DNA from: Escherichia coli
GTDB lineage: Bacteria > Pseudomonadota > Gammaproteobacteria > Enterobacterales > Enterobacteriaceae
Length of the DNA stretch: 64,000 bases
Strand: one strand, 5' to 3'
NCBI RefSeq assembly: GCF_024223415.1
Contig: NZ_CP100500.1
Part shown: positions 18,627-21,979 of the stretch, in pieces
Position numbering within the stretch: the stretch's first letter is position 1
How the letters are laid out: every line of letters starts with the position of its first letter
Program-made: the position numbers and the translations under genes
The notes under the pieces: model-generated
Databases searched by the model: none
What the model was told of the DNA's origin: nothing
The model's input: the letters and a program-made list of their open reading frames with translations, nothing else

Positions 18627-19365
18627 TGTAGTCAATAAGGGTGTCATATTCAACATGAAGATGTCTTCTGGGAATGTTTACATAGCAAATGCTTTCACTC
18701 CGGTAATTAATTTCCGTGATTAACTGCTTTCGATCAATAAAGGAATTGCAAAAGTGTGATCTTGTTCACGACATTGTGGATGATAATATGCCTGATGTCT
18801 GAATCCGGAAACAGTGCTCTGGCGGGTTTCATGTGAAGTTGACGGATAAAAAATCCTCACGACCAGACAGACGTGCGGTTTACGAAATTCGTAACAAGAG
18901 GCTTTTCTACGGATCACGTGGTGCGTGCCACGTGAAATTTTTGTAGCGCAAAATGTGTGATGTGTAAATACAGGAAGGAAAAAAGTTAAATCGGTGGAAG
19001 TCCATACCTGCCACGTGTACGTCTGCATTCCTCGTTTTGAACAGAATTCTCACCAGACATCGTGAATTTCTCATTCAATCATCAGAGATATTAACCAGGA
19101 TTTTTATTGTTTTGTGATAGCAGTACTTTAAATGTTCAGATGCTAAAATAAGCGCGCTTATTATAATTATAGTTATGATGTTTTATCTGTATGTATTTTA
19201 ATGATTTTCGCGTCATTGCTTTTCTGCTGCTTAAATTGAGGGCGCATATTATACACAATAATATTCCTGGTATTATTAAATTAATAAAAGAGGATTCTTA
19301 TCACTGTATTTTTGCTCCGCACTACCGTTCTGGCTGGTGAAGTAATAATACAGGAGAATAACAGA

Positions 19366-20601
<1,236 letters not shown>

Positions 20602-20624
20602 CAGGTCAGGATTTAGATATCTGT

Positions 20625-20643
20625 CCCGGGGGAGTCCCCCGGG
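20625..20643 (+). terminator. Perfect palindrome CCCGGGGGAGTCCCCCGGG after the adhesin gene
   Basis: 8-bp GC stem with 3-nt loop, 24 bp after the stop; no T-run follows, so terminator function is uncertain. Confidence 0.35.
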
Positions 20644-20661
20644 ATATAATGAGGTACAGAG

Positions 20662-21117
20662 ATGCTGGATATAATCCTGGCGACGAGAGATATTTATTTT
20701 GAAAAAGCCCTGCGAGAGATATTTGGAACCGTAAGCAGTCGAATCAGATATATAGAAGATGCCATATCAGACAGAAGAAGGGTGCAGTCAGGCAGGTCAT
20801 TCAGATATTATTTTGTATTCTGTGATGATGAGTATACAGATATTGTTCGTATTCTTTTTACCGGAGAGGCCTGCTGTATTCTGAATAAGTCGATGCTGAA
20901 TCTGAGAGCGGCCGGAGGTGTGTTGACGCTGGAAGAGCGCAGAGCGGTACTGAACCGGTATTACAGAGGTTTAAGTATTGCGGAGATTACAGAAGAGACG
21001 GGGCAGAATGACAAGACGGTATACGGTCATCTTCGTCGTGCACTGCAGCGGTCTGGATTCCGGAAGGGGCGTTTTATAAAGGGGAGAGAAGCTGCGGGGG
21101 ATTCAGGTGTTGAATAA
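20662..21117 (+). CDS. Small HTH regulator (LuxR / sigma-70 region-4 type)
   Basis: 151 aa; C-terminal LTLEERRAVLNRYYRGLSIAEITEETGQNDKTVYGHLRRAL HTH. Confidence 0.6.
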   Translation: MLDIILATRDIYFEKALREIFGTVSSRIRYIEDAISDRRRVQSGRSFRYYFVFCDDEYTDIVRILFTGEACCILNKSMLNLRAAGGVLTLEERRAVLNRYYRGLSIAEITEETGQNDKTVYGHLRRALQRSGFRKGRFIKGREAAGDSGVE

Positions 21118-21501
21118 TGTATCTTATATTGTGATATCGGTGCTGCTGCTGTTATTTTTTGTTGTATTTGTGACGAATGGTTAAGAATAAAACATGAGCT
21201 GGTGATTATCAGGACAGGTTGCTTGTATATGAAGATAACAAAGGCGGCATTTATTTTTGCGCTGTCAGTGTGGAGTGTTGCTGTGATATGTCTTTTATTA
21301 TTTGTACTGATTGTTCTGGGATAGCCATAGTGAAATAAAAAGCTGTCTGAATTAAATTATTTTGCACACATATTTTAATTCTGCACTGAATTCAGAATGG
21401 GTAATCAGTGACCGTCCTGACGGTCACTTTAAAGAAAAGGCATTTACACAGAATGGTAAACAGGTTAAGTCAGCAGAATATCACGGTTAGCACGATGGCT
21501 G

Positions 21502-21840
21502 TCATTCGGCCGATGAACAGTTGCTTAAGACAGGATTATCATTCCCTTCCACCAGATTGGCTTTTTTCCCTTTTGTGTACAGTTTATATGAGTATCTTTT
21601 ATTGATGGCTTCGTAATTGGCTCCGGAGGCCATTTTCATAAGCTGCATAGGTATCATCTCATCCATCTGATTAATCACTGCATATGAGTTCCCAGCAGTG
21701 GTGTTGATATAGACCACCTCCATTGTCTTATTTCCATTACAGACATAAGCTGTTTTTGAGATTTCTTTTGTGGCAGCGGAGGATACCATACTGCTGCTAA
21801 CAAGAATGAGTGCAAGGACGGGAGAAGAGTATTTTTTCAT
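21502..21840 (-). CDS. PliC/MliC-family lysozyme inhibitor-like periplasmic protein
   Basis: 112 aa, signal peptide, conserved Y-x-C ... SGA-x-Y ... NC pattern resembling E. coli MliC. Confidence 0.55.
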   Translation of the reverse strand: MKKYSSPVLALILVSSSMVSSAATKEISKTAYVCNGNKTMEVVYINTTAGNSYAVINQMDEMIPMQLMKMASGANYEAINKRYSYKLYTKGKKANLVEGNDNPVLSNCSSAE

Positions 21841-21979
21841 AATAACTCCTTCTGTAGGTTAAAAAAACAGGTGTTTGATCAGAATTATATTAATAATTCA
21901 TTCATCAGAAAAAAAGGTTTTTGTTATAGCAATAATAATGAGCACAATTGCTTGTGAAACTGGTGCCATTTTACGGTTG

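What the first reader, a model, noticed from the sequence alone, without database searches (positions are those of the whole stretch)
21229..21324. Possible 31-aa hydrophobic peptide gene between the HTH regulator and the lysozyme-inhibitor-like gene
An unannotated ORF encodes MKITKAAFIFALSVWSVAVICLLLFVLIVLG, a single predicted transmembrane helix, followed by a tight hairpin at 21409-21428. The size and composition resemble type I toxin or small membrane regulator peptides. The ribosome-binding site is weak, so this is speculative.
Basis: seen in the sequence. Interest (0 to 1): 0.3.

Follow-up and report, generated by a model that had tools for sequence, protein, structure and literature searches.

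The report
Small membrane peptide in adhesin cassette
The 31-codon hydrophobic reading frame is real and is probably a diverged copy of a small, uncharacterised membrane protein that ends a mobile E. coli adhesin gene cassette; it is not a toxin gene, and the hairpin after it is debris from an insertion sequence.

Summary
The ORF at 21229-21324 (+) exists as described. Its length means nothing: 62% of shuffles of the spacer contain an ATG-ORF of at least 31 codons. Its transmembrane character is unusual (1.8% of shuffles).

The hairpin at 21407-21428 is not its terminator. It lies in a ~68-nt right-end remnant of IS1414 (21405-21472) and has no U-tract.

The locus is a mobile E. coli cassette present in 183 of 5426 complete genomes, all copies at least 99% identical. 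It consists of an Eib-like trimeric autotransporter adhesin, a 151-aa HTH protein, and then this ORF. The same cassette also sits in a prophage, next to tail-fibre genes.

In classical Eib prophages the adhesin gene is followed by ORF-156, a distant homologue of the 151-aa protein. ORF-156 is followed by ORF-60 (phrog_9340), a 41-62-aa protein with a C-terminal transmembrane helix that is under purifying selection (pN/pS 0.23).

The ORF occupies the ORF-60 position and has the same architecture. Its resemblance to ORF-60 is weak: hhalign P=4e-4 and shuffle p=0.0015, but no HMM hit.

No type I toxin feature is met other than size and hydrophobicity.

Verdict: probably a divergent ORF-60-like micropeptide (about 0.5). 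It could instead be a frameshift-split remnant of one. Function is unknown and interest is low to moderate.

The parts
21229..21324 (+). The reported small ORF (sORF): 31 aa, MKITKAAFIFALSVWSVAVICLLLFVLIVLG. It has a basic N-terminus (K2, K5) followed by one TM helix that runs to the C-terminus.
   Evidence: Open in all 26 sampled copies. Observed variants A6V, F9L, I20M, I28V and L30M are all conservative.
21202..21228 (+). In-frame upstream extension from GTG 21202 (the 40-aa form annotated as EKJ80020.1). It also contains the SD-like AGGA (21211-21214) and AGGT (21216-21219).
   Evidence: Anti-SD pairing is -1.5 kcal/mol for the GTG start and -5.6 kcal/mol for the ATG start, so ATG 21229 is the more likely start.
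21107..21184 (+). orfA: a second hydrophobic mini-ORF (25 aa, (M)LNNVSYIVISVLLLLFFVVFVTNG). Its GTG lies 8 nt before the HTH stop, in frame +1 relative to the HTH gene and the sORF. It contains the T6 tract at 21155-21160.
   Evidence: SD-like GGGGGA pairs at -8.6 kcal/mol. Intact in 24 of 26 copies. No similarity to ORF-60 (p=0.95). The 62-aa ORF-60 forms use the same GTG(-8) geometry.
20662..21117 (+). 151-aa HTH protein (Sigma70_r4_2 / LuxR-like HTH at residues 87-130). It is a distant homologue of ORF-156A (phrog_6585) of Eib prophages. Its stop TAA (21115-21117) is in the same frame as the sORF.
   Evidence: Pfam E=2.2e-7. BLASTP against ORF-156A gives E=2e-4, collinear over the full length. 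phrog_6585 E=3.3e-4. Frame relation.
19312..20601 (+). YadA-like / Eib-like trimeric autotransporter adhesin gene, the first gene of the cassette. The likely true start is the ATG at 19366 (MLKRRDAF...).
   Evidence: YadA_anchor E=1e-16. The 3' part is 73-80% identical in DNA to eibA, eibC, eibD and eibE.
20624..20644 (+). GC-rich intercistronic hairpin (TCCCGGGGG-AGT-CCCCCGGGA) between the adhesin and HTH genes, with no T-run.
   Evidence: Read from the sequence. The P-EibA record annotates a stem-loop at the equivalent place. The window lacks one G that is present in all 22 other copies.
21405..21472 (+). Solo right-end remnant of an IS1414 (IS256-family) element. It contains the 'tight hairpin' at 21407-21428 and is not part of the cassette.
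   Evidence: An intact IS1414 lies beside the prophage copy of the cassette.
21325..21336 (+). Right-hand end of the conserved cassette block. The island and prophage copies diverge about 12 nt after the sORF stop.
   Evidence: The matches of L014, L015, L023 and L024 end at window ~21336.

Best explanation
The ORF is the third and last gene of a mobile, prophage-borne E. coli adhesin cassette: an Eib-like trimeric autotransporter, then a small HTH protein, then a small membrane peptide. It is the positional, and probably evolutionary, counterpart of ORF-60 (phrog_9340) in the classical Eib prophages.

ORF-60 is a 41-62-aa protein with a short basic cytoplasmic N-terminus and a single TM helix that ends at the C-terminus. 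Here that gene has diverged about as far as its partner regulator (21% identity) and exists as a 31-aa form.

Inferred mechanism, not shown: the ORF is transcribed as the tail of the adhesin-regulator mRNA and translated from its own moderate Shine-Dalgarno sequence at ATG 21229. The peptide inserts N-in into the inner membrane. It acts through helix-helix contacts as an accessory or modulator linked to the cassette's regulator or adhesin, rather than as a self-poisoning toxin.

The hairpin downstream is an unrelated IS1414 remnant.
For: Shown:
1. The cassette order [tail fibre][DUF4376][YadA-like][ORF-156-like][41-62-aa TM protein] recurs in many E. coli prophages. The window's own cassette is found in exactly that prophage context in the same genome.
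2. The 151-aa protein is a collinear distant homologue of ORF-156A.
3. The ORF-60 family is a real gene under purifying selection: pS 0.58 against pN 0.13 over the last 30 codons, and 0.62 against 0.05 in the core.
4. sORF against the ORF-60 profile: hhalign P=4.3e-4 with 32% identity over 25 columns. In that register the two C-termini coincide and W15 aligns with W44. The same register is the best ungapped one, with score 35.3. It is reached by 0.13-0.15% of composition-preserving shuffles. No natural hydrophobic window reaches it (max 21-27).
5. The overlapping or neighbouring ORFs (orfA and two others) show no such similarity.
6. TM-like coding periodicity is unlikely by chance (1.8% of shuffles). 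The G>C skew of the cassette continues through the ORF and collapses after ~21350.
7. The ORF is open in all 26 sampled copies across two genomic contexts, and the conserved block ends 12 nt after its stop.
8. SD pairing is as good as that of typical genes in the window.
Against: - The ORF-60 HMM does not detect the ORF: E=37 on the six-frame window, and no phrog_9340 hit at E <= 1. BLASTP finds nothing in that register.
- Only 5 of 13 residues match the invariant GAMCFMLFVWLGG core.
- All copies are at least 99% identical, so there is no evolutionary depth. The two SNPs inside the ORF are both nonsynonymous.
- The ORF starts 111 nt after the regulator's stop, whereas most ORF-60 genes overlap or abut it.
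- No promoter or terminator was found for it.
- IS elements have inserted between the regulator and the ORF in some strains.
- No expression data exist, and the function of ORF-60 itself is unknown (one search found no literature).
Confidence: 0.5

Rival explanations
1. Frameshift-split remnant. The cassette once had a single ORF-60-like gene of about 70 codons that started at the regulator's stop (GTG at -8, the orfA frame) and ended at TAG 21322. An indel at or near the T6 tract (21155-21160) split it into orfA and the sORF. The sORF is then a recently orphaned 3' fragment that is not expressed, or only fortuitously.
For: - orfA uses the same GTG(-8) start geometry as the 62-aa ORF-60 forms.
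- A single extra T (T7) joins orfA to the sORF frame, as seen in rare assemblies.
- The frame is open for 69 codons from the HTH stop to TAG 21322, which occurs in only 0.36% of shuffles.
- There is a 111-nt gap between the regulator and the sORF, unlike most family members.
- Near-clonality (at least 99%) means there has been no time for further decay.
Against: - T6 is fixed. None of the 183 complete genomes matches the T7/G4 variant better than 98%, and 24 of 25 sampled copies have T6.
- orfA has no similarity to the polar N-terminus of ORF-60.
- The sORF has its own ATG with adequate SD pairing.
- Natural short forms of ORF-60 (41-42 aa) exist, one of them starting 46 nt downstream of the regulator.
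Confidence: 0.27
2. Chance ORF in a T-rich, horizontally acquired spacer, with no coding history.
For: - ATG-ORFs of at least 31 codons occur in 62% of shuffles of the spacer.
- The spacer is 39% T.
- PGAP does not annotate the ORF.
- No homologue beyond near-identical copies in 5.8 and 1.84 billion proteins.
- Both SNPs in the ORF are nonsynonymous.
Against: - A TM-like ORF arises in only 1.8% of shuffles.
- T is concentrated at codon position 2 (59%).
- Register-specific similarity to ORF-60 (p about 0.0015; hhalign P=4e-4), at exactly the syntenic position.
- The conserved block ends just after the stop.
Confidence: 0.1
3. Type I toxin-antitoxin toxin: a membrane-depolarising peptide held in check by an antisense RNA.
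For: Size, single TM helix and basic N-terminus resemble Ibs, ShoB, TisB and Zor-type toxins (from general knowledge). The locus sits on mobile DNA.
Against: - No Pfam or NCBIfam toxin family match.
- No Rfam family.
- No own promoter. The only antisense-strand promoter-like match is weak (9 of 12), would start upstream of the ORF's initiation region, and falls within the shuffle expectation.
- No unusually stable RNA structure.
- The putative terminator hairpin belongs to IS1414.
- The ORF is embedded in an operon-like cassette whose counterpart gene is often translationally coupled to a regulator.
Confidence: 0.04
4. C-terminal membrane anchor of a formerly longer, membrane-tethered HTH regulator. 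The 220-aa form would be ancestral and the TAA at 21115 a nonsense mutation.
For: The sORF is in the same frame as the HTH gene, with no further stop between them (0.36% of shuffles). 220-aa and 225-aa fused proteins are deposited in GenBank.
Against: - The deposited fused forms do not read through the TAA. They need two homopolymer indels (G5 to G4 and T6 to T7).
- They come from assemblies with other frameshifts.
- None of the 183 complete RefSeq genomes matches the variant better than 98%.
- The TAA is present in every copy aligned.
- ORF-156 homologues end at the equivalent position (E/A-stop) and are followed by a separate small gene.
Confidence: 0.04

Closest known systems
ORF-60A of prophage P-EibA (GenBank AF151091, AAF63236.1) and its family (phrog_9340, 'unknown function')
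   Same: - Same cassette position: last gene after the Eib-like adhesin and the ORF-156-type HTH protein.
- Same architecture: basic N-terminus and one TM helix reaching the C-terminus, with a tryptophan 16 residues from the end.
- Short 41-42-aa forms exist.
- Weak but register-specific sequence similarity.
   Different: - 31 aa instead of 41-62.
- Lacks the near-invariant RYTxGAMCFMLFVWLGG core (5 of 13 identical).
- Not detected by the family HMMs.
- Starts 111 nt after the regulator's stop instead of overlapping or abutting it.
- Preceded by an extra hydrophobic mini-ORF (orfA).
Small E. coli inner-membrane modulators such as MgrB, SafA, AcrZ and MgtS (from general knowledge, not tested here)
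   Same: Single-pass peptides of 30-65 aa, often encoded beside or within regulons of transcription factors. They act through TM helix contacts with larger membrane proteins.
   Different: No sequence relationship was found. No partner protein has been identified. This one is on a prophage or island cassette rather than in the core genome.
Type I toxins (Ibs, ShoB, TisB, ZorO, DinQ, Hok, Ldr)
   Same: Size, hydrophobicity and predicted single TM helix.
   Different: No family match, no antisense RNA or Rfam hit, no own promoter or structured leader. It is the tail of a multi-gene cassette.
IS1414 / IS256-family right end (applies to the hairpin only)
   Same: Window 21405-21472 aligns with the last ~25 nt of the transposase gene plus the terminal repeat. 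The palindrome GTGACCG-N6-CGGTCAC is included.
   Different: Only ~68 nt remain and the rest of the element is deleted. It has no relation to the ORF.

Membership tests
Type I toxin-antitoxin toxin | Small (<60 aa) hydrophobic peptide with one TM helix | tested here: met
   31 aa with a maximum KD19 of 3.0
Type I toxin-antitoxin toxin | Sequence match to a described toxin family (Hok/Gef, Ldr, Ibs, ShoB, TisB, Zor, DinQ, Fst ...) | tested here: not met
   Pfam and NCBIfam at E <= 1 give only a meaningless 'Doppel' hit at E=0.016-0.044
Type I toxin-antitoxin toxin | Overlapping or adjacent antisense RNA gene with its own promoter | tested here: not met
   No Rfam match at E <= 1 in 19000-23500. 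There is one weak minus-strand promoter-like site (21233 to 21205, 9 of 12) that would start upstream of the ORF's initiation region. The count is within the shuffle expectation: 3 found against 4.3 expected.
Type I toxin-antitoxin toxin | Own promoter and structured leader or terminator framing a stand-alone locus | tested here: not met
   No + strand promoter-like site between 21118 and 21229. Folding z-scores are -1.5 and -1.0. The downstream hairpin is IS1414.
Type I toxin-antitoxin toxin | Toxicity or membrane depolarisation on overexpression | not testable with these tools
   Needs an induced-expression experiment
ORF-60 / phrog_9340 small membrane protein of Eib-type cassettes | Encoded directly downstream of an ORF-156-family (phrog_6585) gene that follows a YadA-like adhesin gene | tested here: met
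   Synteny. Homology of the 151-aa protein to ORF-156.
ORF-60 / phrog_9340 small membrane protein of Eib-type cassettes | Basic N-terminus plus a single TM helix reaching the C-terminus, with a conserved Trp 16 residues from the end | tested here: met
   Alignment A5 against the sORF. The best register makes the C-termini coincide and aligns W15 with W44.
ORF-60 / phrog_9340 small membrane protein of Eib-type cassettes | Match to the family profile HMM | tested here: not met
   hmmsearch with an HMM built from A5 gives E=37 for the sORF frame among 2384 six-frame segments. No phrog_9340 hit at E <= 1.
ORF-60 / phrog_9340 small membrane protein of Eib-type cassettes | Profile-profile or compositional-null similarity | tested here: inconclusive
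   hhalign probability 34%, P=4.3e-4. Shuffle p=0.0013-0.0015. z=3.8 against only 40 natural hydrophobic windows.
ORF-60 / phrog_9340 small membrane protein of Eib-type cassettes | Near-invariant core RY[TI][TA]GAMCFMLFVWLG[GA] | tested here: not met
   Only A, F, L, V and W of the 13-residue GAMCFMLFVWLGG block are shared
ORF-60 / phrog_9340 small membrane protein of Eib-type cassettes | Purifying selection on the peptide | tested here: inconclusive
   For the family: pN/pS 0.23, and 0.09 in the core. For the sORF: only 2 SNPs in 25 copies, both nonsynonymous and conservative.
Intrinsic (Rho-independent) terminator, as implied for the hairpin at 21409-21428 | GC-rich stem-loop followed immediately by a U-tract, placed just after the gene | tested here: not met
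   The stem is present, but it is followed by TTTAAAG, is not called by the scan, lies 83 nt after the stop, and belongs to the IS1414 right end
Membrane-tethered HTH regulator (sORF as C-terminal anchor of the HTH protein) | One continuous reading frame from the HTH domain through the TM segment | tested here: not met
   The TAA at 21115-21117 is present in all aligned copies. The fused 220-aa form needs two homopolymer indels, and none of the 183 complete genomes matches it better than 98%.

The most novel reading that the evidence does not exclude
Eib-type adhesin cassettes carry a conserved pair: an orphan LuxR/sigma-region-4-type regulator and a micropeptide. The membrane micropeptide (ORF-60, and here the 31-aa sORF) would couple an envelope or membrane cue to the regulator and so to adhesin expression. 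That could explain, for example, the static-versus-agitated switch reported for EibG (PMC4352079).

A variant of this reading is that the T6 tract allows a -1 ribosomal slip or slipped-strand switch from orfA into the sORF frame. That would give a 72-aa two-TM protein as a second product.
Probability: 0.12. Interest if true: 0.55.

Novelty: new member of a known kind. Interest (0 to 1): 0.3.

Why it matters
The ORF on its own is a minor annotation point. The useful result is the context.

A three-gene module recurs in E. coli prophages and islands: an Eib-like adhesin, a small HTH protein, and a micropeptide with a C-terminal TM helix. Its third gene has been deposited since 2000 as 'ORF-60' without any function. 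Here it is shown to be under clear purifying selection.

If the 31-aa ORF is a working, highly diverged version, the two forms together indicate which features matter (TM helix, Trp position, C-terminal end) and which do not (the cytoplasmic N-terminus). That gives a simple genetic handle on how these adhesins are controlled.

The result also removes two false leads: the 'terminator' is IS debris, and the 220-aa 'fused regulator' entries are probably homopolymer assembly errors.

Tried and rejected
- **Peptide homology search.** The 40-aa form found only copies at least 94% identical.
- **Exhaustive HMMER search** of 1.84 billion representatives with the 220-aa fused form found nothing beyond near-identical fragments.
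- **Other sequence collections.** Plasmids by blastn: no match. Phages by tblastn with the 151-aa protein: no match. Species-representative genomes with an exact 27-mer: 0 hits. Species-representative genomes with peptide patterns: only a 601-nt, probably contaminant, contig.
- **Literature.** Searches for the peptide sequences and the ORF-60A/ORF-156A names returned only irrelevant papers. The AGI-3 island paper (PMC1347334) is not held. The Eib papers I read do not discuss the downstream genes.
- **220-aa protein as ancestral state.** Rejected. It needs G5 to G4 plus T6 to T7, no complete genome matches it, and its sister entries carry further frameshifts.
- **Hairpin as terminator.** Rejected; it is IS1414.
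- **RNA structure or Rfam element around the ORF.** Nothing found.
- **AlphaFold model of the 151-aa protein.** Mean pLDDT was 54.5, too low to use, so no fold search was run.
- **SNP-density comparison.** The counts are 3 SNPs in 207 nt for 21118-21324 against 6 in 80 nt downstream. I do not rely on this, because two of the downstream SNPs mark the junction between the island and prophage lineages.

Full report
**1. The observation**

The ORF is in the sequence exactly as described. ATG 21229 to TAG 21322-21324 on the + strand encodes MKITKAAFIFALSVWSVAVICLLLFVLIVLG. An in-frame GTG at 21202 would give a 40-aa form.

Length alone is not evidence. In 5000 dinucleotide-preserving shuffles of the 287-nt spacer (21118-21404), 62% contain an ATG-ORF of at least 31 codons.

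The hydrophobic character is unusual:
- Only 1.8% of shuffles give an ORF with a TM-like 19-residue window (Kyte-Doolittle >= 2.5; the observed value is 3.0).
- T occupies 59% of second codon positions.

AGGA (21211-21214) and AGGT (21216-21219, 9-nt spacer) pair with the anti-Shine-Dalgarno sequence at -5.6 kcal/mol. The median for long ORFs of the window is -4.5 and the median for random ATGs is -2.35.

**2. The hairpin**

The perfect 10-nt arms at 21407-21416 and 21419-21428 exist. They are not a terminator of this ORF:
- They lie 83 nt after the stop.
- They are followed by TTTAAAG, not a U-tract.
- The terminator scan does not call them.

A sensitive BLAST of 21100-21500 against E. coli genomes showed that 21405-21475 matches thousands of IS256-family elements. 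Alignment with IS1414 copies places the hairpin in the last codons of the transposase gene (FGDRLDGHF*), directly before the right terminal repeat. The window therefore holds a ~68-nt solo right end of IS1414. The MliC gene to the right is separated from the ORF by this debris. In other genomes the cassette has quite different right-hand neighbours.

**3. Where the locus comes from**

The region is an E. coli accessory segment found in 183 of 5426 complete genomes, mostly avian and extraintestinal strains. 180 of the 183 are at least 99% identical to the window.

It consists of three parts:
- A YadA-like trimeric autotransporter gene (19312-20601).
- A 151-aa protein with a sigma-70 region 4 / LuxR-like HTH (20662-21117).
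- The spacer that holds the ORF.

PGAP annotates nothing in the spacer. GenBank does hold a 40-aa 'hypothetical protein' (EKJ80020.1), and gene callers have called the 31-aa form on at least 179 contigs.

Neither the peptide nor the 151-aa protein has any relative beyond near-identical E. coli or Salmonella copies, in a 5.8-billion-protein word search or in an exhaustive HMMER search of 1.84 billion representatives.

In 25 aligned copies (complete genomes, metagenomes and one Salmonella contig) the ORF has two SNPs, A6V and I28V. Both are nonsynonymous and conservative. Protein clusters add F9L, I20M and L30M. All 26 copies keep the frame open. With this little divergence, conservation can neither confirm nor refute a gene.

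**4. Frame relations, and a false lead**

The ORF is in the same frame as the HTH gene, and no stop lies between TAA 21115-21117 and TAG 21322. That happens in 0.36% of shuffles.

A second hydrophobic mini-ORF, orfA (21107-21184, 25 aa), starts at a GTG 8 nt before the HTH stop, in frame +1.

GenBank contains 220-aa and 225-aa 'sigma factor-like' proteins that run from the HTH domain through part of orfA into the ORF. These do not read through the stop. They require G5 to G4 (21096-21100) and T6 to T7 (21155-21160). Their sister entries carry further frameshifts. No complete RefSeq genome among the 183 matches the variant better than 98%. I treat them as homopolymer assembly errors, or at most rare mutants, and not as the ancestral state.

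**5. The comparison that explains the locus**

- **Prophage copy.** The same genome that matches the window at 100% (NZ_CP033635.1) carries a second copy of the cassette inside a prophage. That copy lies directly after tail-fibre and DUF4376 genes. Its similarity to the window ends about 12 nt after the ORF's stop.
- **Eib link.** The adhesin gene's 3' part is 73-80% identical to eibA, eibC, eibD and eibE.
- **P-EibA layout.** In prophage P-EibA (AF151091), eibA is followed by a stem-loop, then ORF-156A, then ORF-60A.
- **ORF-156A.** It aligns collinearly over its full length with the 151-aa protein (BLASTP E=2e-4, 21% identity). There are invariant positions across five family members. The 151-aa protein also hits the ORF-156A family phrog_6585 at E=3.3e-4.
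- **ORF-60A.** Its sequence is MAVLPDARHLLMIQKVQMMNKDRDRRYGRKRYTTGAMCFMLFVWLGGVVALFTAAAVLLQ. It belongs to phrog_9340, 'unknown function'. It has a basic N-terminus and a TM helix that runs to the C-terminus.
- **Recurrence.** The order [tail fibre][DUF4376][YadA-like][156-178 aa][41-62 aa TM protein] recurs in dozens of prophage loci. The start geometry of the third gene varies: a TGATG overlap, an ATGA overlap, a GTG at -8, or an ATG 46 nt downstream giving a 41-aa form.
- **Selection on ORF-60.** The family is clearly selected. Over the last 30 codons pS is 0.58 and pN is 0.13. In the 17-codon core pS is 0.62 and pN is 0.05.

**6. Is the ORF an ORF-60 relative?**

Position and architecture say yes.

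Sequence evidence is mixed. In favour:
- hhalign of the two small alignments gives P=4.3e-4 (probability 34%) with 32% identity over 25 columns. In that register the two C-termini coincide and W15 aligns with W44.
- An ungapped BLOSUM profile score picks the same register as the best of all registers (score 35.3).
- That score is reached by 0.13-0.15% of composition-preserving shuffles.
- orfA and the two overlapping ORFs score at chance.

Against:
- An HMM built from the family does not find the ORF (E=37).
- phrog_9340 gives no hit.
- BLASTP finds nothing in that register.
- Only 5 of the 13 residues of the invariant GAMCFMLFVWLGG core are shared.

Because the partner regulators are only 21% identical, about 30% identity in a TM helix is what a true orthologue might retain. 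Membership remains unproven.

**7. What it most likely is and does**

Best explanation (about 0.5): a divergent, shortened ORF-60-type micropeptide that forms the last gene of the cassette.

Shown: the synteny, the architecture, the compositional continuity with the cassette (G>C skew of +0.25 to +0.46 from the adhesin gene through the ORF, collapsing after ~21350), an adequate SD, and intactness in all copies.

Inferred:
- Co-transcription with the adhesin and HTH genes, since no separate promoter was found.
- N-in membrane insertion.
- Action through helix-helix contacts as an accessory or modulator of the cassette's regulator or adhesin.

With only about 5 cytoplasmic residues, the peptide cannot bind the soluble HTH protein the way an anti-sigma factor would. 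The functional link to the regulator is therefore the weakest step.

Main rival (about 0.27): the ORF is the 3' piece of a gene of about 70 codons that began at the GTG(-8) of orfA and was split by an indel near the T6 tract.

Lesser rivals:
- A chance ORF (about 0.1).
- A type I toxin (about 0.04). It meets none of the defining features other than size and hydrophobicity.
- A truncated membrane-tethered regulator (about 0.04).

**8. Novelty and score**

The cassette and ORF-60A have been in GenBank since 2000. The ORF is best filed as a probable new, divergent member of that uncharacterised small-protein kind, not as a new kind of system.

A specialist would not be surprised by a hydrophobic micropeptide at the end of a prophage moron. 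The modest interest lies in the conserved adhesin-regulator-micropeptide module and in a natural 'minimal' variant of its third gene.

Interest: 0.3.

Noticed in passing
window 21107-21184 (+): A second hydrophobic mini-ORF (orfA, 25 aa, (M)LNNVSYIVISVLLLLFFVVFVTNG) starts at a GTG 8 nt before the HTH stop. It has a strong SD-like GGGGGA (-8.6 kcal/mol) and is intact in 24 of 26 copies. It shares start geometry with the 62-aa ORF-60 forms but has no sequence similarity to them.
   Followed up: partly
window 21405-21472: Solo right-end remnant of IS1414 (IS256 family). An intact IS1414 lies next to the prophage copy of the cassette in the same genome (L027 6502-7710).
   Followed up: yes
window 21096-21100 (G5) and 21155-21160 (T6); L004 3001-3663: GenBank holds 220-aa and 225-aa 'sigma factor-like' proteins (for example MDC9149451.1) created by G4 plus T7 at these tracts. 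None of the 183 complete RefSeq genomes matches that variant better than 98%, so these are probably homopolymer assembly errors.
   Followed up: yes
window 20624-20644: Very stable GC hairpin (9 bp, 3-nt loop) between the adhesin and HTH genes, with no U-tract. The window lacks one G that is present in all 22 other copies. The P-EibA record annotates a stem-loop at the same place after eibA. It may be an attenuator or mRNA-processing site of the cassette.
   Followed up: no
window 19431-19487 and 19921-20198: A hexanucleotide repeat (9.7 copies, encoding (AQ)n just after the signal-peptide-like N-terminus) and a 99-nt repeat (2.8 copies) in the stalk of the YadA-like protein. Protein length varies from 388 to 473 aa among copies.
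   Followed up: no
L027 (NZ_CP033635.1 2066218-2068500); window 19312-21336: The whole adhesin-HTH-sORF cassette is duplicated in the same genome inside a prophage, after tail-fibre and DUF4376 genes. Some genomes have up to 7 places matching the spacer.
   Followed up: partly
L005 3456-6152; window ~21106-21117: An ISCro1 (IS66 family) element is inserted exactly at the HTH stop codon in strain 23CRST026, separating the regulator from the sORF. Many draft contigs break at this point (a 35-member cluster of 'partial' 59-68-aa proteins), which suggests a recurrent insertion site.
   Followed up: partly
L028 4807-4989; L030, L034, L036-L058: The ORF-60 / phrog_9340 family (41-62 aa) is under strong purifying selection (core pN/pS about 0.09), yet it has no assigned function and no Pfam family. 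Its partner ORF-156 (phrog_6585) also has no Pfam match.
   Followed up: partly
window 22160-22337 (-): Short ORFs resembling a DDE (IS3-type) transposase fragment lie between the MliC gene and nanE. IMT5155 has a longer remnant at the same place.
   Followed up: no
L070 (NZ_JPLE01000137.1, 601 nt): A 601-nt contig in a Xanthomonas pisi assembly encodes an 87%-identical ORF-156 fragment. This is probably E. coli contamination of that assembly.
   Followed up: no
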